From IMG/VR virus record IMGVR_UViG_3300044712_002679, positions 180,406 to 244,405 of that record: a stretch of DNA of 64,000 bases. One strand, given 5' to 3'. The notes under the pieces were generated by a model. That model was not told the DNA's origin and made no database searches. It saw only the letters and a list, made by a program, of their open reading frames with translations. A program made the translations under genes and the position numbers. The stretch comes from a virus. This document shows, piece by piece, positions 205 through 12,682 of the stretch (position 1 is its first letter; every line of letters begins with the position of its first letter).

Positions 205-1230
205 ATGTTAAAAAATAAATTTTTAAAAACAAAAGAATGTGAAATATGTGGAAAAAATTTTAATGGTATTAGTGAAAATTCTGATTATAGGTTATTTTTA
301 AGTCACTTAAAAAATGAACACAATATATCATATGAAGATTATTATACTAAATATTATTTGAATGGTATTAAGCCGAAATGCGAATGTGGGTGTGGTAACG
401 TTACAAAATATTATAAAGGTGAATTTAATAAATATTATGGTGATCATAAAAATAAAACTTTACCAAAAAATAGTTCTATTAATAAAATAAAAGAAAAATT
501 AAAAATTGTAAATAATTTAGAAAATAGATTAATAAAATTAAATTTAACAATTAATGATATCGAAGATGCTTGGGATGATTTTATAAATTTAAATAAATCT
601 ATGTCAATGATTTCAAAAGATTTATCTATTGATTTTAGAACACTTAAAAGTTATTGGTTTGAATTGAAATTAATAGATAATAAAGAAGTTTTTAAGAGAT
701 TTACGTTAAAATCAAAAACAAAATGGTTAAATAAAATAGTTGAACCAAATGATGATAAAAAAGAATATTTAAAAAGTTTAATTCCAAATATTCATAAATA
801 TTTGGAAAATAGAAATAATGTTACAATTGATGAATTAGTTAAGTTTTTTAAATTAGATATTAATAAAAATTATTTTTGTTTATTTTTAGATGATCAATTA
901 AATAATAATGAAATATCAAAAATTAAATTTTTCAAATCATCAAATATTGAAATAGAATTTTTTAATGTTTTGCGGTTTTATTTTGGAAATAGTATAATAC
1001 ATAGTTTTGAATTAGAACATAAAATATTTGACTTTAAATTAGGTAAAAAAATTTTAATAGAATTAGATGGAGAATATTGGCATAATTTTGAACAGTCAAA
1101 GATAAATGATAAATTAAAAAATGAAATCGCTTTAAAAAATGGATATGTATTAATACGTATTAGTGATAAAAATATAAATGATTTAGATAATTTAATAAAA
1201 ATAAAAAAATTATATGACAAATTTAAGTAA
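205..1230 (+). CDS. Free-standing homing-endonuclease-like protein: N-terminal Zn-finger-like Cys/His clusters and a C-terminal Vsr/DUF559-like PD-(D/E)xK nuclease domain
   Basis: 341-aa ORF. C-terminal block ILIELDGEYWHNFEQSKINDKLKNEIALKNGYVLIRISD matches the E-DG-WH..R pattern of Vsr-like endonuclease domains. It sits between the two halves of a split intein. Confidence 0.6.
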   Translation: MLKNKFLKTKECEICGKNFNGISENSDYRLFLSHLKNEHNISYEDYYTKYYLNGIKPKCECGCGNVTKYYKGEFNKYYGDHKNKTLPKNSSINKIKEKLKIVNNLENRLIKLNLTINDIEDAWDDFINLNKSMSMISKDLSIDFRTLKSYWFELKLIDNKEVFKRFTLKSKTKWLNKIVEPNDDKKEYLKSLIPNIHKYLENRNNVTIDELVKFFKLDINKNYFCLFLDDQLNNNEISKIKFFKSSNIEIEFFNVLRFYFGNSIIHSFELEHKIFDFKLGKKILIELDGEYWHNFEQSKINDKLKNEIALKNGYVLIRISDKNINDLDNLIKIKKLYDKFK

Positions 1231-1348
1231 ATATAAACTTGTTGAAATAAAAACGAAAAAAATCGTAAATGATAAAATTCATAAAGTATATGATTTATCA
1301 GTTGAAGATAATCAGAGTTATACAGCAAATAAAATAATTGTTCATAAT
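1214..1348 (+). other. Split-intein C-terminal fragment (IntC, 45 aa) with its own Met start
   Basis: MTNLSKYKLVEIKTKKIVNDKIHKVYDLSVEDNQSYTANKIIVHN, followed by Cys+1. It is closely patterned on DnaE IntC (VYDIGVE.DHNF..NG.IASN), with the terminal HN and a downstream Cys nucleophile. Confidence 0.7.
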
Positions 1349-1924
1349 TGTCTTACATCAAAAAATGTTGGTGTTGGATATCCAATGGCATCATTAATTA
1401 AAGAATGTTATGATATTAGTTGCACATTAGATAAACCAGCAAAGATTGTTGCTGATGGTGGAATGAAAAATTATTCGGATATCATTAAAGCATTGGGTCT
1501 TGGGGCAGATTATTGCATGGTCGGTTCAATTTTTAATCGAGCATTAGAAAGTGCAGGTGAAACATATAAAGCAAATGTTAAACACGTGGGTGTTGAAACT
1601 TGGACTGAACCAGGTGAACCAGTTGATCAATTTTCTGACGATGTGAAAAATGCATTTTTAAATGGTGCTAAATATTTCAAAAAATTTAGGGGTATGAGCA
1701 CAAAAAGTGTTCAAAAATTGCTTGGGAATAAGGTTTTAACGACTTCAGAAGGTGTTACACGTATGAACCAAGTAGAATATACCCTTGAAGGTTGGACTGA
1801 AAATTTTACCCATTATTTGGCTTCTGCAATGTCATATTCAGGTGCTAAAACATTAGATGATTTTATTGGTAAAGCTGATTTTGTTAAAATAACACAGAAC
1901 AGTTTTAATAGATTTAATAAGTAA
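1214..1924 (+). CDS. C-intein plus C-extein of a GMP reductase / IMPDH-family enzyme (C-terminal half of a fractured gene)
   Basis: After VHN|C the extein reads CLTSKNVGVGYP...IVADGG...GADYCMVGS...FRGMSTKS.... This matches the GuaC/IMPDH catalytic-Cys segment (GSxCTTR..GVGYPQ..DGG..GAD.VMLG..YGMSS). Confidence 0.7.
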   Translation: MTNLSKYKLVEIKTKKIVNDKIHKVYDLSVEDNQSYTANKIIVHNCLTSKNVGVGYPMASLIKECYDISCTLDKPAKIVADGGMKNYSDIIKALGLGADYCMVGSIFNRALESAGETYKANVKHVGVETWTEPGEPVDQFSDDVKNAFLNGAKYFKKFRGMSTKSVQKLLGNKVLTTSEGVTRMNQVEYTLEGWTENFTHYLASAMSYSGAKTLDDFIGKADFVKITQNSFNRFNK

Positions 1925-6204: not shown

Positions 6205-6294
6205 TGCGGTGTGGAGAAGTTGGTCATCTCACCTGTCTCATAAGCACGGAGTCCCTAATAAGGTTTAACACAGGTTCAAATCCTGTCGCCGCTA
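6205..6294 (+). pseudogene. Diverged copy of the initiator tRNA gene (anticodon loop CTCATAA) with a broken anticodon stem and about a 21-nt insertion
   Basis: Shares TGCGG.G...CGCCGCTACA ends and the D-arm GAGAAGTTGGTCATCTC with the adjacent tRNA-fMet. T-arm ACAGGTTCAAATCCTGT. The 3' strand of the anticodon stem does not pair. Confidence 0.3.
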
Positions 6295-6308
6295 CAAATA
6301 TCAAACAT

Positions 6309-6662: not shown

Positions 6663-6748
6663 GTTGCGGTATGCAAATGGCCTAAGCGAACAGACTTTCA
6701 TTCTGTACTTCTGAAAAGAAGTTGCGGGTTCGACTCCCGTCCGCAATA
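6663..6748 (+). tRNA. Type-II (long variable arm) tRNA with anticodon UUC (Glu), which is non-canonical. Discriminator A73
   Basis: Acceptor GTTGCGG/CCGCAAT, 3-bp D-stem, anticodon stem ACAGA/TCTGT with loop CTTTCAT, variable hairpin ACTTC-TGAAAA-GAAGT, T-arm GCGGGTTCGACTCCCGT. Confidence 0.5.
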
Positions 6749-6756
6749 CTTTTTTA

Positions 6757-6830
6757 TGCTGCTTTCGTATAATTGGAATAGTACCTCAGACCTCAATCTG
6801 GAAAATACGGGTTCGAGTCCCGCAGGCAGT
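6757..6830 (+). tRNA. tRNA-like sequence with a good T-arm. The acceptor and anticodon could not be resolved
   Basis: T-arm CGGGTTCGAGTCCCG at 6806-6822. Confidence 0.2.
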
Positions 6831-6836
6831 ACATTT

Positions 6837-6984: not shown

Positions 6985-7068
6985 GGTCTCGGGGGCTGCT
7001 TGGTGTGGCCGCCTGCCTGTCACGCAGGAACCGTAAGGATCAGGAGGGTTCGAATCCCTTCGGGACCG
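6985..7068 (+). tRNA. tRNA-Asp (GTC) with an unusual 15-nt variable region
   Basis: Acceptor GGTCTCG/CGGGACC, anticodon stem CCTGC/GCAGG with loop CTGTCAC, insert AACCGTAAGGATCAG before the T-arm GAGGGTTCGAATCCCTT. Confidence 0.55.
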
Positions 7069-7079
7069 CATTTAAATTG

Positions 7080-7170
7080 GGGTGCGTTGCTTCATGGGGT
7101 CTGTAAAACCCTTCTGCGTTAACAAAATAGAAGCTGGTGGCAGTTTTGAGGTTCAATTCCTTCGTATCCC
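7080..7170 (+). tRNA. D-arm-less tRNA-like gene with a Tyr-type anticodon hairpin (GTA)
   Basis: Acceptor GGGTGCG/CGTATCC, a 9-nt linker, hairpin GGGGT-CTGTAAA-ACCCT, a 35-nt region with a D-loop-like GCTGGTGGC, T-arm GAGGTTCAATTCCTT. Confidence 0.35.
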
Positions 7171-7192
7171 ACAAATTGAACGCAAATTATAT

Positions 7193-7265
7193 GGTGAAGA
7201 AGCTAGTATGGTACAGCTACGGTCTGTTAAACCGAGGATAGTGGGATCGTTACCCACCTTCACCG
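7193..7265 (+). tRNA. tRNA-Asn (GTT)
   Basis: Perfect acceptor GGTGAAG/CTTCACC, D-arm GCTAGTATGGTACAGC, anticodon loop CTGTTAA, T-arm GTGGGATCGTTACCCAC. Confidence 0.75.
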
Positions 7266-7322
7266 CAATATACTGTACTTCGAGAAGAAGGTAATGATAA
7301 GAATCATTCAGTACTATTTTTT

Positions 7323-7398
7323 GGTGCGTTGAGCGTACATGAGTACGAACCTGGCTGTCACCCAGGTAAAACTAGGGGTTCGATACCCCTACGCACCG
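7323..7398 (+). tRNA. tRNA-Asp (GTC)
   Basis: Perfect acceptor GGTGCGT/ACGCACC, anticodon stem CCTGG/CCAGG with loop CTGTCAC, T-arm AGGGGTTCGATACCCCT. Confidence 0.75.
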
Positions 7399-7403
7399 CA
7401 AAC

Positions 7404-7485
7404 TGTGGTGTATTCAGCCGATCCTGATAAGATCGAGAACTTGTAATTGGTATTGTAAATGTGGGTTCAAGTCCCACCACCACAA
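7404..7485 (+). tRNA. D-arm-less tRNA-like gene with an Ile-type anticodon hairpin (GAT)
   Basis: Perfect acceptor TGTGGTG/CACCACA, an 8-nt linker, hairpin CGATC-CTGATAA-GATCG, a 25-nt region containing GTAATTGGTAT, T-arm GTGGGTTCAAGTCCCAC. Confidence 0.45.
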
Positions 7486-7650
7486 CATTTAGACAACAAC
7501 GGGGGACTTTAGTTATCTCAATGGTTATCAGCATGAGGTATCTAAAATAGTTTAGTGATATTTTTTCGTAAATATTAAAACCTATTTGAAATCTTATTCG
7601 TATTAATAAACAACTTAGAAAATAAGAAAAATTAAATAAAGCTGATTTAT

Positions 7651-7735
7651 GGAAGTATTGGGCAACTGGTTGCCTAGCGGGCCGTAACCCCGTGATCTTA
7701 CGATATTGGGGGTTCGAATCCCTCTGCTTCCACCA
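7651..7735 (+). tRNA. tRNA with a 13-nt variable region, anticodon probably GTA, CCA encoded
   Basis: Acceptor GGAAGTA/TGCTTCC then ACCA. D-arm GGGCAACTGGTTGCC, anticodon stem GCGGG/CCCGT with loop CCGTAAC (C33 is unusual), T-arm GGGGGTTCGAATCCCTC. Confidence 0.5.
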
Positions 7736-7788
7736 TCGAAAATAACAAAAAATGACTTTATTTATTTAATATATAGAATAAAAACTAA

Positions 7789-8494
7789 TATGAAAAATAA
7801 ATGGTCAAAAAATAACTTATTTGATGTTATTAATACATCAAATAATAAAATTGAAGTTTTAACAAAACTTAAATTAACAATATTTACGGGAAATTATGAT
7901 ACATTAAATAAATACATTAAAAAATATAATATAGATATATCACACTTTAAACGAAATCATAATATAGATAATTTAAATAATTTTAAAAAAATTGATTTAA
8001 AAAATATATTAGTAGAAAATTCAACCTATAGTCGATCTAAATTAAAAGAAAGATTATATAAAGAAGGTTTAAAAGAAAGAAAATGTGAAAAATGTGGGCA
8101 AGATGAAGAATGGAATGGTGATCATATTAGTTTAATTCTAGATCACATCAATGGTATTAATGATGATAATAGAATAGAAAATTTAAGAATACTTTGTCCA
8201 AATTGTAATGCTACATTAGACACACATTGTGGAAAAAATGTTAAAGATAAAAGCAAAACAAATATAACTATCAAAACAAAAAATGACAAATATTGTTTAT
8301 GTGGTAAGAATATAGACAAAAGATCAAAAAAATGCAAATCTTGTAATAACATAGAATTATCTATATTGCAACGTAAAGTTGAAAGACCAACATATGATAC
8401 ATTATTAAAAAATATTGAAGATTTTGGATATTCTGGTACAGGAAGAATATATAATGTAAGTGATAATACAATACGAAAATGGATAAAAAAATAA
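7789..8494 (+). CDS. HNH homing endonuclease, paralogous to 25232-26077
   Basis: CEKCGQDEEWNGDHISLILDHINGINDDNRIENLRILCPNCNATLDTHCGKN is an HNH/Zn motif. The likely start is MKNKWS at 7789, downstream of the tRNA at 7651-7735. It is embedded in the tRNA cluster, like segB in the T4 tRNA region. Confidence 0.7.
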
Positions 8495-8495
8495 A

Positions 8496-8580
8496 GGGGG
8501 TATCGCATAGCGGCAATTGCAATTGACTGTAAATCAATCGTCTTATGGCTTCGTAGGTTCGAGTCCTACTACCCCCACCA
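8496..8580 (+). tRNA. tRNA-Tyr (GTA), bacterial type II with a long variable region, CCA encoded
   Basis: Acceptor GGGGGTA/TACCCCC then ACCA. Anticodon stem ATTGA/TCAAT with loop CTGTAAA, a 14-nt variable region, T-arm GTAGGTTCGAGTCCTAC. Confidence 0.75.
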
Positions 8581-8584
8581 AATT

Positions 8585-8656
8585 GGAAGTGTAGCTCAGA
8601 GGCAGAGCGTTTGCCCGTTAAGCAAGGGGTCGAGATTTCGAAATTCTCCATTTCCG
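8585..8656 (+). tRNA. tRNA, anticodon probably GTT (C33 in the loop CCGTTAA is unusual)
   Basis: Acceptor GGAAGTG/CATTTCC, D-arm GCTCAGAGGCAGAGC, T-region GAGATTTCGAAATTCTC. Confidence 0.5.
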
Positions 8657-8660
8657 CAAT

Positions 8661-8733
8661 GGTGTTGTAGTTCAGTGTGTAGAATAAGGCGTTGTCTGCG
8701 CCAAGGTCGTGAGTTCGAGTCTCATCAGCACCG
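8661..8733 (+). tRNA. tRNA, anticodon unresolved (loop TTGTCTG)
   Basis: Acceptor GGTGTTG/CAGCACC, T-arm GTGAGTTCGAGTCTCAT. Confidence 0.5.
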
Positions 8734-8738
8734 CATAA

Positions 8739-8812
8739 GGTAGTGTAGCTCAGTTGGTTAGAGCGGCGGACTGTTAATCCGTAGGTCGGGGGATCGTAAC
8801 CCTCCACTACCG
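8739..8812 (+). tRNA. tRNA-Asn (GTT)
   Basis: Perfect acceptor GGTAGTG/CACTACC, D-arm TAGCTCAGTTGGTTAGAGC, anticodon region GGCGGACTGTTAATCCGTA identical to E. coli tRNA-Asn. Confidence 0.8.
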
Positions 8813-8822
8813 CAAAATTATT

Positions 8823-8906
8823 GCACAATTGGTCGAGTGGCTTAGGCAACGGTCTGCAAAATCGTAACGGAGAAATCCTACGGGGGTTCGAATCCCTCAT
8901 TGTGCT
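8823..8906 (+). tRNA. tRNA with anticodon GCA (Cys) and discriminator U73, but a Leu/Ser-type D-arm and a 15-nt variable arm
   Basis: Perfect acceptor GCACAAT/ATTGTGC, D-arm GTCGAGTGGCTTAGGC, anticodon stem ACGGT/ATCGT with loop CTGCAAA, variable hairpin GGAGAAATCC, T-arm GGGGGTTCGAATCCCTC. Confidence 0.55.
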
Positions 8907-8950
8907 CTTTTTAAATAAAAACAAATTCAAATTATTTATATGTTAAAAAT

Positions 8951-9034
8951 ATCGTAGTGCGCAGAGTTGGTCTATTGCAGTGGGCTCATATCCCACCATC
9001 TTTGATATCGTGAGTTCGAATCTCACCTACGATA
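8951..9034 (+). tRNA. tRNA with a CAT anticodon (elongator Met or Ile2 type) and a 13-nt variable region
   Basis: Perfect acceptor ATCGTAG/CTACGAT, anticodon stem GTGGG/CCCAC with loop CTCATAT, T-arm GTGAGTTCGAATCTCAC. Confidence 0.55.
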
Positions 9035-9047
9035 CGGTAAATTTAAT

Positions 9048-9124
9048 GGGAATCTAGCTCAATTGGTCAGAGCATCTCGCTGATACCGAGAAGGTTGCAG
9101 ATTCGAGTTCTGCGTTTCCCACCA
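9048..9124 (+). tRNA. tRNA-Ile (GAT), CCA encoded
   Basis: Acceptor GGGAATC/GTTTCCC then ACCA. D-arm TAGCTCAATTGGTCAGAGCA, anticodon stem CTCG/CGAG with loop CTGATAC, T-arm GCAGATTCGAGTTCTGC. Confidence 0.8.
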
Positions 9125-9127
9125 AAT

Positions 9128-9205
9128 ATCGGTGTATCTCAACTGGCTTATACCCAGGCATAACTGAGTAATTGGTGTATGTGGGTTCGAGTCCCACCTC
9201 CGATA
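9128..9205 (+). tRNA. D-arm-less tRNA-like gene with an anticodon hairpin TAT (Ile-AUA type)
   Basis: Acceptor ATCGGTG/CTCCGAT, an 8-nt linker, hairpin CTGG-CTTATAC-CCAG, a 23-nt region containing GTAATTGGTGT (same motif as 7404-7485), T-arm GTGGGTTCGAGTCCCAC. Confidence 0.4.
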
Positions 9206-9243
9206 CAAATCCATTATAATAAGGCAAGTAAAAAATCTTGTAA

Positions 9244-9310
9244 TCATAGGGTAGCGTGTCCGCAGCTAATTGGGGATAAGTTGGTGATAATCCCAATCAC
9301 GTCCTATGAT
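9244..9310 (+). ncRNA. Structured RNA-like element (function unknown), possibly a T-arm-less tRNA-like fold
   Basis: Outer helix ATCATAGG/CCTATGAT, D-arm-like AGC-GTGTCCGCA-GCT, and a 6-bp hairpin TTGGGG...TCCCAA with a 15-nt loop. Confidence 0.2.
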
Positions 9311-9319
9311 GGGTTTTAT

Positions 9320-9394
9320 AGTGCTGTAGTTCAGATTGGTTAGAATACTAGACTGTCACTCTAGTGGTCACGGGTTCGAATCCCGCCAGCACTG
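9320..9394 (+). tRNA. tRNA-Asp (GTC)
   Basis: Perfect acceptor AGTGCTG/CAGCACT, D-arm TAGTTCAGATTGGTTAGAATA, anticodon stem CTAGA/TCTAG with loop CTGTCAC, T-arm CGGGTTCGAATCCCG. Confidence 0.75.
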
Positions 9395-9403
9395 CAATAA
9401 TTT

Positions 9404-9541
9404 GGGGAAGATGGCAATGGTTTACATTATTATGATAATTCTAATAAAAATGTACAATTTATTAATCATGATATGTAAATTGGCAAGCAAGGAAGGCTCG
9501 TACACCTTCTACCTGAAAAGGTTACTGTTGGTTCGAATCCA
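9404..9541 (+). tRNA. tRNA-like gene interrupted by about a 70-nt structured insertion (intron-like or pseudogene)
   Basis: Acceptor GGGGAAG...TCTCCCC, T-arm GTTGGTTCGAATCCAGC. The insert tttacatt...atgtaaa carries inverted repeats. Confidence 0.4.
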
Positions 9542-9557
9542 GCTCTCCCCACAAAAT

Positions 9558-9719
9558 AATTTTATTTGGAGAAATAGCTCAGTTGGTAGAGCAACGTAAA
9601 AAGAAAAAAACGTAATTTGTATTTGATATTCGAAGTCAAAAAATTAAAAATTATGTACAGCAAACCAAAATCTAAGCATGTAAAGCCGTGTGTCGGGGGT
9701 TCAAGTCCTTCTTTCTCCA
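9558..9719 (+). tRNA. tRNA-like gene with about a 95-nt insertion between the D-arm and T-arm
   Basis: Perfect acceptor GGAGAAA/TTTCTCC, canonical D-arm TAGCTCAGTTGGTAGAGCA, T-arm GGGGGTTCAAGTCCTTC. Internal candidate anticodon hairpin TTGAT-ATTCGAA-GTCAA (TCG). Confidence 0.4.
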
Positions 9720-9738
9720 CGAATATGTTTTTAAAATT

Positions 9739-9814
9739 GGGGTATGGCTTAGTCGGGTCTAAAGCAACTGTGACTGATGTGCAGGAGATCATTGGTTCGA
9801 ATCCAGTTGCCCCT
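9739..9814 (+). tRNA. tRNA, anticodon unresolved
   Basis: Acceptor GGGGTAT/TTGCCCC, D-arm GCTTAGTCGGGTCTAAAGC, T-arm ATTGGTTCGAATCCAGT. Confidence 0.5.
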
Positions 9815-9857
9815 ACAAAATGATAACTTATCAGATTTATATATACAAATAAAAAGT

Positions 9858-10811
9858 ATGTACGACAAAAACAATAAAGAGACAATATGGCAAAGAACGG
9901 AAGAAAATATGTTTACAGATATTCTTTTCGATTTTATACCATTTAAGCATGATGCATGTGAAGAAACGTGGGAAGCATATTATACTTATGGTGATCCTTG
10001 TTTTATTGAAGGTTTAAAAAATTGCATTAAAAAAGTTTATAGAACAGGTTGGAAAGCTAAAATATTTGGTGAATATTATTATCAGCTACAAAGGTGGCCG
10101 ACATCATATGAAAATATGATAGGAATGTCGAGGGATCATTTGATTTATGTATTTTCTGCATTATACAAATATGGGATATCTTCAGATGAATTACACGAAT
10201 ATGTTTCACATTTAAGACCTGTTGTTAGTACGACAATTGGGATGCATATGACATTTGAACTTTGGTTATGGTTAAAATTGATATCAAAACGGAAAATAGG
10301 TATTTTATATTATCCTTGGCGATTGGTTGGTTCGACTTTAAATATGTTGTGGACTAAGTTAATTTACAAATTAGCAAATTGGCCAGAAGAATTATCATTA
10401 GATGAATATTGGCCTCGTAGAGATGAAAGACTTAATAAATCATTTAAGGATAGGATATTTTCATCGTTGGTAGCACCTGTATATTCTAGAAAATTGACTT
10501 CGACAAAAGTAAGTTTATTACCTGATAATTGGTGGACAAAATCAATTAAAAAGATTGAATTAATGACAACGACAAGATATAATTATGTTTTGCGAATGTT
10601 GAATGGTGATAAAACAGTTAAAAGGGAAGATATTGAAGCATATCATTCTATTCTATATTATAGATGGTCTGATTCATTTGAACCATGGCGAACAGTCCGT
10701 TGGATGACAGAGATTCCCAAAGATCGTGGATATGATTTAGTTAATATATATCATATAAATCAAATAGATAGGGATTATGCATTAAAAATATATGATGAAT
10801 TAATAGGATAA
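9858..10811 (+). CDS. Hypothetical protein
   Basis: ORF 9777-10811 trimmed to Met at 9858 (MYDKNNKETIW), downstream of the tRNA ending at 9814. Confidence 0.55.
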   Translation: MYDKNNKETIWQRTEENMFTDILFDFIPFKHDACEETWEAYYTYGDPCFIEGLKNCIKKVYRTGWKAKIFGEYYYQLQRWPTSYENMIGMSRDHLIYVFSALYKYGISSDELHEYVSHLRPVVSTTIGMHMTFELWLWLKLISKRKIGILYYPWRLVGSTLNMLWTKLIYKLANWPEELSLDEYWPRRDERLNKSFKDRIFSSLVAPVYSRKLTSTKVSLLPDNWWTKSIKKIELMTTTRYNYVLRMLNGDKTVKREDIEAYHSILYYRWSDSFEPWRTVRWMTEIPKDRGYDLVNIYHINQIDRDYALKIYDELIG

Positions 10812-10895
10812 AAATATTTGCATCGGAAGGTGTAATTTGCCTTTATGTAAAAGTGTAATAATTACGTAATAAAAGCACATAATGTAATAAGGGTA

Positions 10896-10965
10896 CGTGA
10901 CATAGGTCAGGGGTAGACCGCTGGTGCGAAACCAGAAGTCGGTGGTTCGAGTCCATCTGTCGCAA
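10896..10965 (+). tRNA. tRNA, anticodon unresolved (loop TGCGAAA)
   Basis: T-arm GGTGGTTCGAGTCCATC, acceptor CGTGACA/TGTCGCA, D-arm GGTCAGGGGTAGACC. Confidence 0.45.
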
Positions 10966-10966
10966 C

Positions 10967-11114
10967 GAAGATTCCTGGCAGTGGTGATGTCAGCTACACA
11001 GGTAGGTGTGGTGTCTTAACAGACTAAGTTAATGTAAAAATTTAAAATTAGTTGAATAATATTGCGCATAAAAATTTAATGAAATTAAATTAGGTTCGAA
11101 TCCCTTGATCTTCA
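10967..11114 (+). tRNA. tRNA-like gene with about a 75-nt insertion
   Basis: Acceptor GAAGATT/GATCTTC with a T-loop GGTTCGAATCCCTT. The ends are 148 nt apart. Confidence 0.35.
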
Positions 11115-11119
11115 CGATT

Positions 11120-11190
11120 GGTAATATAGTTTAACGAATAGAATGGCTGCGAGTCAGCAGTTGATGGTGGTTTGATTCCATCTGTTACCG
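11120..11190 (+). tRNA. tRNA, anticodon unresolved
   Basis: Acceptor GGTAATA/TGTTACC, T-arm GGTGGTTTGATTCCATC. Confidence 0.45.
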
Positions 11191-11193
11191 CAA

Positions 11194-11264
11194 AATAATA
11201 TAGCTTAATTGGATAGAGTTGCCGTATTAGCGGTATGGTGTTGGTTCGAATCCTTCTATTATTA
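11194..11264 (+). tRNA. tRNA-like, anticodon unresolved, with an all-A/T acceptor stem
   Basis: Acceptor AATAATA/TATTATT, D-arm TAGCTTAATTGGATAGAGT, T-loop GGTTCGAATCC. Confidence 0.4.
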
Positions 11265-11282
11265 CAAAAAAACACAATTATT

Positions 11283-11504
11283 ATGGAAAAGACAGCATTT
11301 CAATCACGTATTGAAAAGGAAAATGAAGTTTTAAAATTTTTAAATCGTGAAATTTTAAAAAGTGCAAAGAAAGGTGATTATCATTATTATTGGGATATCA
11401 CAGGGTTGAGTGATTATATGATAAAAGGTATAATTGCAACATTAGAAAAGGAAGGTAAATTCATTAAAAGTAAAGGAACAAATTTCAAAATTATACATTG
11501 GTAA
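11283..11504 (+). CDS. Hypothetical protein
   Basis: ORF trimmed to MEKTAFQ at 11283, after the tRNA at 11194-11264. Confidence 0.4.
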   Translation: MEKTAFQSRIEKENEVLKFLNREILKSAKKGDYHYYWDITGLSDYMIKGIIATLEKEGKFIKSKGTNFKIIHW

Positions 11505-11519
11505 TTTAATATATAATGT

Positions 11520-12146
11520 ATGATAAAATTATTTGAAGAATATACAAAAATAGATAAAATTGATACATTTATTAATTTTATGAAACAATATAAATTAACA
11601 GAAATTATAATTGATTCTGAACTTGATAAATATATTATTAATAGTATCAAATTTAATAAGAGATATGATAAATATGTGTTAAATTATCAAGCTATTAATA
11701 GACCATATATTGAAGTTGAATTATCAAGTTTATCATCATCATTTATAGATAATTTGTATGTTTTATGTAAAACTGAAGATTTATTCAATATAGAAAATCA
11801 ATTAAATTCGACTTCGATTGATTTTGATAATTTTGTTAACATCTTAAAAAATTGCAAAGAAAAAATTAATTTTAATAAAGATATGTTTACATCATTATGT
11901 GATTCAGGATGGGTTGAAGATATTAATAAATTTAACTTTCAAGATATATTATTTTCAACACATCCAGAATCATATAAACCATTTTTGGATGAATGTTTTT
12001 TACACTTAGAATACAAAAATGATGATCCAACATTAGAAGAAATGGTTTTACATCCAAAGATTTTAATTAAGTATAATTCATTATTGGGTGATTATTATAA
12101 ACAAAAATTAATGGAACAAAAAGCAAAAAAATACAATATAATTTAA
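11520..12146 (+). CDS. Hypothetical protein of the CTS-like family (N-terminus MIKLFEEY, C-terminus KKYNII)
   Basis: 208-aa ORF. The N- and C-termini are shared with the 34172-37318 array. Confidence 0.55.
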   Translation: MIKLFEEYTKIDKIDTFINFMKQYKLTEIIIDSELDKYIINSIKFNKRYDKYVLNYQAINRPYIEVELSSLSSSFIDNLYVLCKTEDLFNIENQLNSTSIDFDNFVNILKNCKEKINFNKDMFTSLCDSGWVEDINKFNFQDILFSTHPESYKPFLDECFLHLEYKNDDPTLEEMVLHPKILIKYNSLLGDYYKQKLMEQKAKKYNII

Positions 12147-12473
12147 AAATTAAAAAACTTACGAAATGGACACAATGATGATTGACACAGAGTATAAAAC
12201 CGAATTCATTAGAATAATGGATGAAGTTTTCGAAGATTTTGATTTTGATTTTGAATTGGATTTTAGTATATTTAGTATATTTAAATCAAAAAAATCAAAA
12301 GAATAAAAACACTAAAATTGCTGAAAAGAAAAACCAAGAATATTATTTGGGGTATAATTGGAATTGTTTTTTGTGTATTATTTTTACCAATACTGTTTCC
12401 AATATATATTATCTTATTTATATTTATTGCGATATTTGATAATAAAGAATAATTTTATTTCCCAATATAAAAT

Positions 12474-12554
12474 GCCTCAGTATTAGCACTGTCTTCGAAA
12501 CAGTAGTCGTATAGCGGATAATGAAAAACGTGGGTTCGAATCCCTCCTGGGGTA
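12474..12554 (+). tRNA. D-arm-less tRNA-like gene with an Arg-type anticodon hairpin (TCG)
   Basis: Acceptor GCCTCAG/CTGGGGT with two G:U pairs, a 7-nt linker, hairpin ACTGT-CTTCGAA-ACAGT, a 25-nt region with ATAGCGGATA, T-arm GTGGGTTCGAATCCCTC. Confidence 0.4.
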
Positions 12555-12664
12555 CGATGTAAAAGGGTTAAATGATGATTAATAGGGTCTATTTTTAAAT
12601 CTAGATTAATAAATAAGACTATTGATATGTAATTTTTCGTGACAGTTCAAATCTGTCTACATCA
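12555..12664 (+). tRNA. tRNA-like gene with an internal insertion
   Basis: Acceptor CGATGTA/TACATCA (6 of 7 pairs) and T-arm GACAGTTCAAATCTGTC. The ends are about 110 nt apart. Confidence 0.3.
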
Positions 12665-12682
12665 CAAATATATTTAAATGAT

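What the first reader, a model, noticed from the sequence alone, without database searches (positions are those of the whole stretch)
7080..12554. A family of D-arm-less tRNA-like genes with canonical anticodon hairpins and a displaced D-loop-like motif
Four genes share one unusual architecture: 7080-7170, 7404-7485, 9128-9205 and 12474-12554. Each has a good 7-bp acceptor stem and a canonical T-arm (GGTTCGAGTCC type). A 7-9-nt linker replaces the D-arm. The anticodon hairpin is perfect, with a 5-bp stem and a textbook 7-nt loop: CTGTAAA (Tyr), CTGATAA (Ile), CTTATAC (UAU) and CTTCGAA (Arg). Between the anticodon arm and the T-arm lies a 23-35-nt region carrying a D-loop-like motif (GTAATTGGTAT, GTAATTGGTGT, ATAGCGGATA, GCTGGTGGC). 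This regularity is unlikely to be chance. Armless tRNAs are known from metazoan mitochondria but not from phages. They could be functional minimal tRNAs, decoys for host anticodon nucleases, or precursors rearranged by processing.
Basis: seen in the sequence. Interest (0 to 1): 0.8.

Follow-up and report, generated by a model that had tools for sequence, protein, structure and literature searches.

The report
Phage tRNAs with a rewired D-arm
Four unannotated genes in this phage-like tRNA cluster are not armless tRNAs: half of the D-arm has moved to the other side of the anticodon arm but still pairs, and this layout recurs in well over a hundred phage sequences, including cultured crAss-like and Streptomyces phages.

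Summary
The four loci are real and share one architecture, but "D-arm-less" is the wrong description.

**Structure.** The 3-5 nt after U8-A9 pair with the 3-5 nt just 5' of the displaced D-loop motif. I call this helix P. It encloses the anticodon arm. The D-loop then runs into the T-stem.

In standard numbering the order is 1-9 | 22-47 | 10-21 | 48-76. The 5' strand and loop of the D-arm have moved into the variable region.

**Evidence.**
- 47 distinct Ile-type relatives: helix P is 95% paired, against 57% when shuffled, and all three pairs covary.
- 26 Arg-type relatives show the same for two P pairs.
- The tertiary and identity positions I could check are kept: U8, A14, G18G19, a covarying R15-Y48 pair, U20/A73 in Ile types and A20 in Arg types.

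**Distribution.** ARAGORN and Rfam miss or mis-align these genes. They are unannotated in GenBank phages, including Kehishuvirus 'tikkala' and 78 Streptomyces phages. They are almost absent from 185,579 bacterial and archaeal genomes.

**Assignments.**
- c3: tRNA-Ile(UAU), firm.
- c2: tRNA-Ile(GAU), firm.
- c4: tRNA-Arg(UCG), good.
- c1: tRNA-Tyr(GUA), a divergent pseudoknotted class-II version, weaker.

Expression and charging are untested. I found no prior description.

The parts
9128..9205 (+). c3: D-segment-transposed tRNA-Ile(UAU). Acceptor 9128-9134 / 9198-9204 (U-U at 6-67). U8 A9 U at 9135-9137. Anticodon arm 9143-9157, anticodon TAT 9149-9151. T arm 9181-9197. Discriminator A9205.
   Evidence: R1 model 77.4 bits, E 1.7e-17. 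RF00005 only 29.8 bits, with the D-arm deleted. Missed by ARAGORN. It is the only UAU anticodon in the array, while AUA makes up 47 per 1000 codons.
9138..9141 (+). c3 helix P, 5' strand (CUCA). It takes the place of nt 23-25 (+26) of a standard tRNA.
   Evidence: Pairs with UGAG at 9165-9168. The homologous columns 12-14 / 45-47 of alignment A1 are 95% paired with compensatory changes.
9165..9168 (+). c3 helix P, 3' strand (UGAG). It takes the place of nt 10-12.
9169..9180 (+). c3 transposed D-loop and connector, UAAUUGGUGUAU (U13 A14 A15 U16 U17 G18 G19 U20 ... U48), running straight into the T stem.
   Evidence: UAAUUGGU is invariant in A1. The loop core matches that of the canonical tRNA-Ile at 9048-9121 (AAUUGGUCA). 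The A15/U48 pairing pattern is shown.
7404..7485 (+). c2: D-segment-transposed tRNA-Ile(GAU). Acceptor 7404-7410 / 7478-7484 (7 Watson-Crick pairs). UAUU at 7411-7414. Anticodon arm 7419-7435, anticodon GAT 7426-7428. T arm 7461-7477. Discriminator A7485.
   Evidence: R1 model 75.1 bits. No RF00005 hit, only a weak tmRNA-like acceptor/T match. Missed by ARAGORN.
7415..7417 (+). c2 helix P, 5' strand (CAG).
   Evidence: Pairs with (C)UUG at 7440-7443, either as C-G, A-U, G-U or with one bulged U. Closest relatives show CAG/CUG (L077, L186) and CGA/UCG (L069, L237).
7440..7443 (+). c2 helix P, 3' strand (CUUG).
7444..7460 (+). c2 transposed D-loop and connector, UAAUUGGUAUUGUAAAU.
   Evidence: It ends in U (position 48) opposite A15.
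12474..12554 (+). c4: D-segment-transposed tRNA-Arg(UCG). Acceptor 12474-12480 / 12547-12553. UAU at 12481-12483. Anticodon arm 12488-12504, anticodon TCG 12495-12497. T arm 12530-12546 (U-U at 50-64). Discriminator A12554.
   Evidence: R1 model 36.7 bits. RF00005 31.6 bits, with the D-arm deleted and a 22-nt insertion. 25 Arg-type relatives in alignment A3. The closest is L237 4872-4949.
12484..12486 (+). c4 helix P, 5' strand (UAG). U-A and A-U pair; the third position is G opposite G.
   Evidence: In A3 the two outer P pairs covary (UA14 CG9 GC1; GC14 CG7 AU5). The third pair is unpaired in 18 of 25.
12509..12511 (+). c4 helix P, 3' strand (GUA).
12512..12529 (+). c4 transposed D-loop and connector, UAGCGGAUAAUGAAAAAC (A14 G15 ... 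G18 G19 A20 ... C48).
   Evidence: GGA (A20, the bacterial ArgRS determinant) is invariant in all 26 Arg-type sequences (PMC9976931). G15 is matched by C just before the T stem. A competing local hairpin UCGU...AUGA (12507-12510 / 12521-12524) is possible in c4 but is not conserved.
7079..7171 (+). c1: divergent class-II-type member, tRNA-Tyr(GUA)-like. Acceptor 7079-7086 / 7163-7170 (8 bp). Anticodon arm 7096-7112, anticodon GTA 7103-7105. T arm 7148-7162 (4-bp stem). Discriminator A7171.
   Evidence: Clearly homologous to six Tyr-type sequences (L167 x2, L207, L216, L223, L226) over the anticodon arm and the CUGCGUUAACAAA(A)UAG segment. Not detected by ARAGORN, RF00005 or R1. No BLAST hit in GenBank phages.
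7089..7093 (+). c1 helix P, 5' strand (GCUUC).
   Evidence: Perfect 5-bp complement of GAAGC at 7130-7134, at the position where relatives have CGGC paired with GUCG, GCCG or G(U)UCG.
7130..7139 (+). c1 helix P 3' strand (GAAGC, 7130-7134) followed by a shortened D-loop, UGGUG (7135-7139).
   Evidence: Relatives have UAGCGGACUU or UAUUGGCCUU here. c1 keeps only the GG and lacks A14.
7114..7143 (+). c1 helix V: CUGC 7114-7117 with GCAG 7140-7143. This is a variable-arm-like stem whose loop holds the transposed D segment. It crosses helix P, making a pseudoknot.
   Evidence: Relatives have CUGCG/CGCAG, CCGCG/CGCGG and CCGCG/UGCGG, giving one compensatory position. Support is thin: seven sequences.

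Best explanation
These are genes for elongator tRNAs with a changed backbone order but, most likely, the usual three-dimensional fold.

**The rearrangement.** The segment corresponding to nt 10-21 (the 5' strand of the D-stem plus the D-loop) lies in the variable region instead of between nt 9 and nt 22. The chain therefore runs:
- acceptor 5' strand, U8, A9;
- a U, then 3 nt standing in for nt 22-25;
- one nt (26), then the anticodon arm (27-43);
- a short connector;
- 3 nt standing in for nt 10-12, then U13;
- the D-loop (A14, R15, Y, Y, G18, G19, N20 ...);
- a few nt ending in Y48;
- the T arm, the acceptor 3' strand and the discriminator.

**What is shown.**
- The two D-stem strands still pair. 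This is helix P, which encloses the anticodon arm.
- The 5' segment from A9 to the anticodon loop keeps the standard length.

**What is inferred.**
- Helix P stacks on the anticodon stem, as the D-stem does in an ordinary tRNA.
- The three new junctions (9 to 22, about 45 to 10, and 21 to 48) each join nucleotides that are already neighbours in the core of a standard tRNA. An L-shape with an intact elbow is therefore sterically plausible.
- The RNAs are processed like their neighbours in the array, charged by host IleRS, ArgRS and TyrRS, and used on the ribosome.

**Assignments.** c3 reads AUA, c2 reads AUY, c4 reads CGN and c1 reads UAY.

**Origin (inferred).** An internal duplication of the D-to-variable region, followed by deletions.

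**Why phages keep this form is unknown.** The most attractive guess is escape from tRNA-directed nucleases that need the normal backbone.
For: **Helix P is real.**
- In a plain MAFFT alignment of 47 distinct Ile-type sequences, the full structure is 94.3% paired against 61.8% in shuffles. The covariation score is 0.817 against 0.19, and slid controls give 38-48%.
- P alone is 95.0% paired against 56.9%, with 45 doubly changed cells against 10.5 and slides of 18-39%.
- RNAalifold predicts P on its own.
- The search patterns fixed only the D-loop and T-arm sequences. Covariation in P, the acceptor and the anticodon stem is therefore not an artefact of how the sequences were collected.
- The Arg-type alignment (26 sequences) is 92.5% paired, covariation 0.807 against 0.228, with two covarying P pairs.

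**Core and elbow are kept.**
- U8, A9, U13-A14, G18G19 and the T-loop are invariant.
- Position 15 against the base just 5' of the T stem reads A:U 77, G:C 8, A:C 2. On A3 it reads AU 20, GC 4, GU 1, other 1. This fits the R15-Y48 Levitt pair.
- The stretch from A9 to the anticodon loop is 10 nt in 45 of 47 Ile types and 19 of 26 Arg types, matching nt 22-31 of a standard tRNA.

**Identity elements track the anticodon.**
- All 61 Ile types have GGU (U20) and A73.
- All 26 Arg types have GGA (A20).
- These match the bacterial identity sets in PMC9976931.

**Context.**
- The genes always sit in tRNA arrays, a few nt from neighbouring tRNAs.
- In Kehishuvirus 'tikkala' the gene fills a 90-nt gap in a 23-tRNA array and is the only GAU-Ile there.
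- In this window c3 is the only UAU anticodon, while AUA is 47 per 1000 codons.

**Breadth.**
- There were 97 covariance-model hits in 74 sources.
- 81 GenBank phage records matched.
- Anticodons seen: UAU, GAU, CAU, ACG, CCG, UCG, UCU, GUA.
Against: - There are no expression, processing or aminoacylation data. The tRNA function rests on conservation alone.
- P is short: 3 bp in Ile types and 2 bp plus a mismatch in most Arg types, c4 included.
- Single-sequence thermodynamic folding does not favour P. For c3 it gives -14.7 against an MFE of -23.9. For c2 it gives -17.6 against -21.9. For c4 it gives -11.7 against -15.1 for a local D hairpin.
- The outermost anticodon-stem pair is non-canonical in most Ile types.
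- c1 fails every model. It lacks A14, has only a 5-nt D-loop, needs an 8/4 acceptor/T arrangement, and its pseudoknot rests on seven sequences. It may be decaying, since two canonical tRNA-Tyr genes lie nearby.
- The shuffle controls ignore relatedness, so the statistics overstate independence.
- The three-dimensional argument is reasoning from the known tRNA core, not a model.
- No selective advantage has been shown.
Confidence: 0.7

Rival explanations
1. Translation-independent tRNA mimics. These would be structured, conserved RNAs that keep a tRNA shape to act as decoys or sponges for host tRNA-directed nucleases or tRNA-binding defence proteins, or to serve some other phage function, without delivering amino acids.
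For: - They are almost confined to viruses. Only 3 of 30 motif hits in 185,579 species genomes are of this type, all on metagenome-assembled contigs, and one is identical to a viral contig.
- Canonical tRNAs with the same anticodon often sit beside them. In this window these are Ile-GAU at 9048 and Tyr-GUA at 7651 and 8496.
- Conservation of shape would also be expected of a decoy.
Against: - Determinants read by the synthetases, not only by nucleases, track the anticodon: A20 in every Arg type, and U20 plus A73 in every Ile type.
- In some genomes the rewired gene is the only source of an anticodon in heavy demand: c3 here, and GAU in 'tikkala'.
- The anticodon loops are fully canonical.
Confidence: 0.15
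2. One reading: truly D-arm-less minimal tRNAs, in which an unpaired 7-9-nt connector replaces the D-arm and the downstream motif is only a long variable loop.
For: RF00005 aligns c3 and c4 in exactly this way, with the D-arm deleted and a long variable insertion.
Against: - The connector covaries with the bases 5' of the D-loop motif, at 95% paired with compensatory changes at all three pairs.
- RNAalifold finds the helix on its own.
- G18G19, A14 and the 15-48 pair are conserved. Armless mitochondrial tRNAs have lost these.
Confidence: 0.04
3. Precursors that are cut and rejoined into standard tRNAs, as happens for the permuted or split tRNA genes of some algae and archaea.
For: The order of the segments is a simple swap of two neighbouring blocks, so a standard tRNA could in principle be rebuilt from the pieces.
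Against: - Both acceptor strands are already at the gene ends. Restoring the standard order would need at least two cuts and two ligations at internal sites.
- By eye, in alignments A1 and A3, I saw no conserved helix or bulged motif at the three junctions that could serve as a splicing signal.
- The connectors vary in length and sequence.
- The junction-spanning 15-48 covariation indicates selection on the RNA as encoded.
Confidence: 0.03
4. Decaying or scrambled tRNA pseudogenes produced by recombination in a repetitive tRNA array. This is relevant mainly to c1.
For: - c1 has a truncated D-loop, no A14, UU instead of UA after the acceptor, a 4-bp T stem and no significant model score.
- Two canonical tRNA-Tyr genes are present.
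- The array also holds other odd tRNA-like genes with large insertions.
Against: - For c2-c4 this is excluded by the conservation and covariation across many unrelated contigs.
- In c1 both P strands differ from those of its relatives yet still pair perfectly over 5 bp. Its acceptor, anticodon arm and T-loop are intact.
Confidence: 0.08

Closest known systems
Canonical bacterial and phage tRNA (Rfam RF00005 cloverleaf), e.g. the tRNA-Ile(GAU) at window 9048-9121
   Same: - A 7-bp acceptor, discriminator, 7-nt anticodon loop and T arm.
- The same D-loop sequence (AAUUGGU..).
- U8, A14, G18G19 and the R15-Y48 pair.
- Amino-acid identity elements.
- Location in tRNA arrays.
   Different: Nt 10-21 lie 3' of the anticodon arm. 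The D-stem is a long-range helix around the anticodon arm, not a local hairpin. The variable region is split in two. Standard detectors fail.
Circularly permuted tRNA genes of Cyanidioschyzon merolae and split tRNA genes of Nanoarchaeum (from my own knowledge)
   Same: The gene order of tRNA segments departs from the standard order.
   Different: In those cases the whole gene is permuted or split, a splicing motif marks the junctions, and processing restores a standard mature tRNA. Here the acceptor ends are already at the gene termini and only two internal blocks are swapped. I saw no splicing motif at the junctions in alignments A1 and A3, and selection acts on the encoded order.
D-arm-less and other truncated mitochondrial tRNAs of nematodes, mites and other metazoa (review PMC7609411)
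   Same: No D hairpin at the usual place, and poor detection by standard tools.
   Different: The mitochondrial forms have lost the D-stem, the D-loop and often the elbow contacts, and are shorter (about 50-65 nt). The phage forms keep all of these in a new order and are slightly longer than normal (mode 77 nt without CCA).
Engineered circularly permuted tRNAs (Pan, Gutell and Uhlenbeck 1991, from my own knowledge)
   Same: They show that the tRNA fold tolerates breaks and new joins in the backbone.
   Different: Those are laboratory constructs with the natural ends joined. This is a natural internal block swap with the natural ends kept.
tRNA-like structures at the 3' ends of plant virus RNAs, e.g. 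TYMV (from my own knowledge)
   Same: A viral RNA that builds a tRNA-shaped fold with non-standard strand connectivity.
   Different: Those are part of a genomic RNA, form the acceptor arm through a pseudoknot and do not decode. The phage RNAs are stand-alone genes with canonical anticodon loops in tRNA arrays.

Membership tests
Canonical tRNA (RF00005 cloverleaf) | Acceptor helix of about 7 bp with a discriminator base | tested here: met
   97% paired with compensatory changes at all 7 pairs. c1 is better read as 8 bp.
Canonical tRNA (RF00005 cloverleaf) | T arm with a UUCRANY loop and a 5-bp stem | tested here: met
   GGGUUC.A.UCCC is invariant in A1. c1 has a 4-bp stem and c4 has one U-U mismatch.
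Canonical tRNA (RF00005 cloverleaf) | Anticodon arm with a 7-nt loop, U33 and a purine at 37 | tested here: met
   C32, U33, A35, U36 and A37 are invariant in A1. All four window genes comply.
Canonical tRNA (RF00005 cloverleaf) | D hairpin (stem 10-13/22-25 closed by the D-loop) between nt 9 and nt 26 | tested here: not met
   RF00005 alignments delete the 15 D-arm positions in c3 and c4. There is no hit for c1 or c2.
Canonical tRNA (RF00005 cloverleaf) | Score at or above the Rfam gathering threshold (29 bits) | tested here: inconclusive
   c4 scores 31.6. c3 scores 29.8, only with permissive filters. c1 and c2 give no hit.
Canonical tRNA (RF00005 cloverleaf) | Aminoacylation and use in translation | not testable with these tools
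   Only indirect evidence: the identity elements A20 (Arg) and U20 plus A73 (Ile) follow the anticodon.
D-arm-less (mitochondrial-type) tRNA | The D-arm is replaced by an unpaired connector, with no D-stem | tested here: not met
   The connector forms the covarying helix P.
D-arm-less (mitochondrial-type) tRNA | Loss of the G18G19 / T-loop elbow and of the conserved core nucleotides | tested here: not met
   UAAUUGGU and the T-loop are invariant. Positions 15 and 48 covary.
Circularly permuted tRNA gene (C. merolae type) | The 3' half lies upstream of the 5' half, so the mature ends lie inside the gene | tested here: not met
   The 5' and 3' acceptor strands are at the two ends of each gene.
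D-segment-transposed tRNA (family defined here by model R1 and alignments A1 and A3) | Order: acceptor, UA(U), P 5' strand, anticodon arm, connector, P 3' strand, D-loop with GG, T arm, acceptor; with P covarying | tested here: met
   c3 77.4, c2 75.1 and c4 36.7 bits. P covariation is shown. c1 scores 9.2 bits with R1 but has the same order, plus an extra crossing helix shared with six Tyr-type relatives.

The most novel reading that the evidence does not exclude
Phages have evolved, and spread across very different lineages (crAss-like, Streptomyces, jumbo and huge phages), a second fully functional tRNA topology. It keeps the L-shape and synthetase recognition. Because its backbone is broken and rejoined around the D-arm and core, it escapes tRNA-directed nucleases, either host defence enzymes or the phage's own host-tRNA-depleting enzymes. 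If so, these would be nuclease-proof replacement tRNAs, and natural proof that the cloverleaf connectivity is not required for decoding.
Probability: 0.25. Interest if true: 0.95.

Novelty: new variant of a known kind. Interest (0 to 1): 0.85.

Why it matters
The order of arms in the cloverleaf is treated as universal. The known exceptions either lose arms (mitochondria) or are repaired by processing (permuted and split genes). A conserved, widespread tRNA class whose encoded chain threads the D-arm differently matters for four reasons.

- **RNA folding.** It would show that the L-shape and synthetase recognition do not depend on the standard connectivity.
- **Annotation.** It exposes a blind spot. 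ARAGORN, Rfam and GenBank records miss these genes, even in curated SEA-PHAGES and crAss-like genomes. Phage tRNA repertoires and codon-supply analyses are therefore incomplete. Here that affects AUA, at 47 per 1000 codons.
- **Engineering.** It gives a natural scaffold for orthogonal tRNA design.
- **Biology.** It raises a testable question about the phage-host arms race over tRNAs. The family occurs in cultured phages with tractable hosts (Bacteroides cellulosilyticus, Streptomyces griseus and S. lividans), so the question can be tested directly.

Tried and rejected
**Structural alternatives**
- *Complete D hairpin moved 3' of the anticodon arm* (my first idea, prompted by c4's UCGU-AUAGCGGAUA-AUGA). 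Rejected as the family structure. The hairpin has no fixed register in the 25 Arg-type relatives, whereas P covaries. It remains possible for c4 alone (-15.1 against -11.7 kcal/mol).
- *Local hairpin GUAA/UUAC within the D-loop segment of Ile types.* It shows no compensatory change and is no better than shuffles.
- *Single-sequence MFE folding.* It does not recover the tRNA-like fold for c3 and prefers other pairings for c1, c2 and c4. I treated this as uninformative for short tertiary-stabilised helices.
- *Alternative mapping (P 5' strand = nt 10-13, P 3' strand = nt 22-25).* Rejected. It needs more rearrangements and would put the anticodon arm on the wrong end of the D-stem.

**Searches that gave little or nothing**
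- The Tyr-type pattern in IMG/VR found only L167. The same pattern in metagenomes gave four more relatives among many chance hits.
- BLAST of c1 against GenBank phages found no match.
- An exact-protein look-up of a window ORF, to identify the source contig, found nothing on record.
- Pfam scans of 17 ORFs, ten flanking the array and seven long ORFs elsewhere in the window, found no aminoacyl-tRNA synthetase, RNA ligase or CCA-adding enzyme. They found an HNH endonuclease, an IMPDH-like fragment, glycosyltransferases and an epimerase.

**Literature**
- Seven full-text searches and the 2020 review of non-canonical tRNAs turned up no description of a transposed or permuted D-arm. The library is incomplete, so this is absence of evidence only.

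Full report
**Setting**

The window has 24% G+C. It carries a co-oriented array of more than 22 tRNA genes at about 6.2-12.8 kb, with three more near 25 kb. An HNH endonuclease ORF lies inside the array.

The best DNA matches of the array region are short pieces of 735-kb and 636-kb uncultured phage genomes, LR756501 and LR756504. The source is therefore most likely a very large phage. An exact-protein look-up did not find the contig itself.

**Checking the observation**

The four loci are as described.

ARAGORN does not call c1 (7080-7170), c2 (7404-7485) or c3 (9128-9205). It calls c4 with odd bounds.

Rfam's tRNA model reaches c4 at 31.6 bits. With permissive filters it reaches c3 at 29.8 bits. 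In both cases it deletes all 15 D-arm positions and inserts 19-22 nt in the variable region. It finds nothing for c1 or c2. No covariance model places a normal D-arm.

Small corrections:
- c3 has a U-U mismatch in the acceptor and only 4 bp plus an A-G in the anticodon stem.
- c4 has a U-U mismatch in the T stem.
- c1 is best read with an 8-bp acceptor starting at 7079 and a 4-bp T stem.

**Finding relatives**

Searching IMG/VR for the displaced motif placed close to a T arm gave two results:
- GTAATTGGT N3-14 GTGGGTTCRAGTCCCAC gave 21 loci.

After removing ordinary class-II tRNAs and a second family (described under origin below), 47 distinct sequences of 76-83 nt remained, c2 and c3 among them. 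All have anticodon UAU or GAU.

Reading them side by side showed the key point. The three bases after the conserved U8-A9-U change together with the three bases just 5' of UAAUUGG. Examples are CGG/CCG, CAG/CUG, CGU/ACG, CUC/GAG, ACC/GGU and UCC/GGA.

**The structure**

I tested the structure on a plain MAFFT alignment, A1.

| Measure | Full structure (acceptor, P, anticodon stem, T stem) | Helix P alone |
|---|---|---|
| Cells paired | 94.3% | 95.0% |
| Paired in shuffles | 61.8% | 56.9% |
| Covariation score | 0.817 | 0.872 |
| Covariation in shuffles | 0.19 | 0.159 |
| Paired when partners are slid 1-3 columns | 38-48% | 18-39% |
| Source | | |

All three P pairs show double changes. The middle pair reads CG 22, GC 12, UA 9, AU 4. 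RNAalifold predicts P without being told.

The search patterns fixed only the D-loop and T-arm sequences. The covariation in P, the acceptor and the anticodon stem therefore cannot come from the way the sequences were collected.

A rival local hairpin in the D-loop segment shows no compensatory change. The outermost anticodon-stem pair is non-canonical in 30 of 38 Ile types.

**Mapping to the standard tRNA**

The encoded order corresponds to 1-7, U8, A9 | U22, 23-25 | 26 | 27-43 | connector | 10-12, U13 | A14, A15, U16, U17, G18, G19, U20 ... | ... Y48 | 49-65 | 66-72 | 73.

The block 10-21 and the block 22-47 have changed places. Four observations support this mapping over the alternatives.
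- **Only one block swap is needed.**
- **The loop is the same.** The D-loop core matches that of the canonical tRNA-Ile in the same array (AAUUGGUCA).
- **The spacing is the same.** The 5' segment from A9 to the anticodon loop is exactly 10 nt in 45 of 47 Ile types and 19 of 26 Arg types. That equals positions 22-31 of a standard tRNA.
- **Positions 15 and 48 covary.** The base at position 15 covaries with the base just 5' of the T stem: A with U 77 times, G with C 8 times, A with C twice. On A3 the counts are AU 20, GC 4, GU 1, other 1, with slid controls at 0-46%. This is the behaviour of the R15-Y48 Levitt pair, and it spans one of the new junctions.

From established tRNA structure (my own knowledge):
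- A9 docks on the 12-23 pair.
- Nucleotide 45 docks on the 10-25 pair.
- A21 stacks next to the 15-48 pair.

Each of the three new joins (9 to 22, about 45 to 10, and 21 to 48) therefore links nucleotides that are already neighbours. An unchanged L-shape is an inference. I could not model it.

**A superfamily with several specificities**

A covariance model built from A1 (R1) scores c3 at 77.4, c2 at 75.1 and c4 at 36.7 bits in the window.

In the fetched loci it finds the same layout with anticodons CAU, ACG, CCG, UCG and UCU, and a longer GUA type.

A dedicated search gave 21 more Arg-type sequences. The 26-sequence MAFFT alignment A3 gives these results:
- It is 92.5% paired, with covariation 0.807 against 0.228.
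- Two P pairs covary (UA 14, CG 9, GC 1; and GC 14, CG 7, AU 5).
- The third P pair is usually a mismatch (18 of 25), as in c4 (UAG/GUA).

The base after G18G19 is A in all 26 Arg types and U in all 61 Ile types. All Ile types have A73. A20 is the main bacterial ArgRS determinant, and U20 and A73 belong to the bacterial Ile set (PMC9976931, Table 1). Synthetase determinants located in the transposed segment thus follow the anticodon. This argues that the RNAs are charged, not merely tRNA-shaped.

**c4**

Its nearest relative, L237 4872-4949, has the same UAGC/GUA arrangement.

c4 alone can also form a local D hairpin, UCGU-AUAGCGGAUA-AUGA. This is thermodynamically better than P (-15.1 against -11.7 kcal/mol). 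The hairpin has no conserved register in the relatives, so I regard it as incidental. I cannot exclude it for this one gene.

**c1**

The Ile-based model does not detect c1. It is nevertheless clearly homologous to six Tyr-type sequences: two in L167, plus L207, L216, L223 and L226.

These carry P (CGGC with GUCG, GCCG or G(U)UCG) and a second helix, V. V flanks the transposed segment and corresponds to the long variable arm of bacterial tRNA-Tyr. Its versions are CUGCG/CGCAG, CCGCG/CGCGG and CCGCG/UGCGG.

P and V cross, so this type is pseudoknotted.

In c1 both P strands differ from those of the relatives yet pair perfectly (GCUUC/GAAGC), and V is CUGC/GCAG. However, c1's D-loop is cut down to UGGUG, A14 is missing, and UU replaces UA after the acceptor. 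With seven sequences the support is thin. c1 may be a relaxed or decaying copy, since two canonical tRNA-Tyr genes lie nearby.

**Distribution**

- The family occurs on IMG/VR contigs from 5 kb to 435 kb.
- The Ile-type motif was found in only 30 places among one genome each of 185,579 bacterial and archaeal species. 27 of the 30 are not of this type; most are class-II tRNA variable arms.
- The three true members lie on metagenome-assembled contigs. One of them is identical to a viral contig.
- In GenBank phages a GAU-type query matched 81 records. These include Kehishuvirus 'tikkala' (a crAss-like phage of Bacteroides cellulosilyticus, 98.7% identical) and 78 Streptomyces phages. None has a feature annotated at the match.
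- A UAU-type query matched crAss-like cr130_1 and bajarodcaudo virus 1.
- In 'tikkala' the gene fills a 90-nt unannotated gap between tRNA-Trp and tRNA-Met in a 23-tRNA array. It is the only GAU-Ile there.
- In phage CeilingFan it lies just after a nucleotidyl-transferase gene.
- ARAGORN misses every copy I checked.

**Function and mechanism**

Shown:
- a conserved RNA with the rewired secondary structure;
- intact anticodon loop, elbow and core nucleotides;
- anticodon-matched identity elements;
- tRNA-array context, a few nt from neighbouring tRNAs.

Inferred: processing by RNase P and 3' maturation, charging, and decoding.

In this window AUA accounts for 47 per 1000 codons and c3 is the only UAU anticodon. 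c3 is therefore probably important for the phage's own translation.

The reason for the rewiring is unknown. All specificities seen so far (Ile, Arg, Tyr and CAU) are substrates of class I synthetases. That may reflect common descent and not a constraint.

Virus restriction and coexistence with canonical copies suggest resistance to tRNA-directed nucleases. A decoy role is also possible.

**Origin (inference)**

The second family caught by the motif search is an 89-91-nt tRNA that ARAGORN calls tRNA-Ile(UAU). It has a normal D-arm plus a second UAAUUGGU...CAU segment in its variable region. That is the order A-B-C-B'-D expected of a duplication intermediate. Losing the first B would give the rewired order A-C-B-D. 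I did not test this further.

**Novelty**

Seven full-text searches and the 2020 review of natural non-canonical tRNAs gave no description of such tRNAs. The library is incomplete, so prior description cannot be ruled out.

I rate this a new structural variant of a known kind of molecule.

Noticed in passing
window 6205-6295 (Met), 6663-6749 (Glu), 6985-7069 (Asp), 8823-8907 (Cys), 8951-9035 (Met): tRNAs for amino acids that normally have short variable loops carry long, hairpin-forming variable arms here, giving lengths of 84-91 nt. Examples are CUUCUGAAAAGAAG in Glu and ACCGUAAGGAUCAGG in Asp.
   Followed up: no
window 9403-9555, 9570-9720, 10969-11110: Three tRNA-like genes have good acceptor and T arms but are interrupted by AT-rich insertions of about 60-85 nt, in the D-loop or anticodon region. 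The first insertion has 7-nt inverted ends, TTTACAT...ATGTAAA. They are too short for group I introns. ARAGORN and Rfam do not call them.
   Followed up: no
window 12623-12665: A 43-nt element consisting only of an acceptor helix and a T arm (a minihelix). RF00005 scores it at 15 bits with the D and anticodon arms deleted.
   Followed up: no
window 6758-6832 and 11194-11265: ARAGORN reports two tRNAs of undetermined type with two-base 'anticodons' (tc, tt), meaning anticodon loops of unusual size. Rfam scores them at 36-42 bits.
   Followed up: no
window 7706-8494: An HNH (homing-type) endonuclease ORF sits in the middle of the tRNA array (Pfam PF01844). It matches homing endonucleases of Yersinia jumbo phages at the DNA level.
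   Followed up: partly
window 1214-1924: This ORF has an IMP dehydrogenase / GMP reductase domain preceded by a weak match to the end of an intein splicing domain. It may be a remnant or half of an intein-interrupted gene.
   Followed up: no
IMG/VR loci such as L029, L033, L053, L062 (about 32-45 distinct sequences): This is an abundant 89-91-nt tRNA-Ile(UAU) with a normal D-arm (GUUU AAUGGUA AAAC) plus a second D-loop motif, UAAUUGGUUCAU, in a 22-nt variable region. CCA is encoded. It may be the duplication intermediate on the way to the rewired tRNAs.
   Followed up: partly
L237 4368-4457, L232 10358-10448 and 13235-13323, L027 11715-11803, L077 5764-5853: Some rewired Ile and Arg tRNAs carry an extra hairpin (for example UUGA GAUAACA UCAA) between the transposed D-loop and the T stem, giving lengths of 89-91 nt.
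   Followed up: no
L061 1874-1943 and a second copy about 600 nt away: These tRNA-like RNAs have an acceptor, T arm and UAAUUGGU motif. A long perfect hairpin (UGACAGA...UCUGUCA) takes the place of helix P plus the anticodon arm, and there is no anticodon-like loop.
   Followed up: no
L022 9734-9806 and L010: A rewired Ile(GAU)-like sequence whose 3' end (AGGAGUC) does not pair with its 5' acceptor strand (UGGUAGG). A CCUAC complement lies upstream instead. It may be a truncated or further rearranged copy.
   Followed up: no
L247 2464-2985 (Streptomyces phage CeilingFan): The unannotated rewired tRNA-Ile(GAU) starts 10 nt after a gene annotated 'nucleotidyl transferase'. I did not check whether this is a CCA-adding enzyme.
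   Followed up: no
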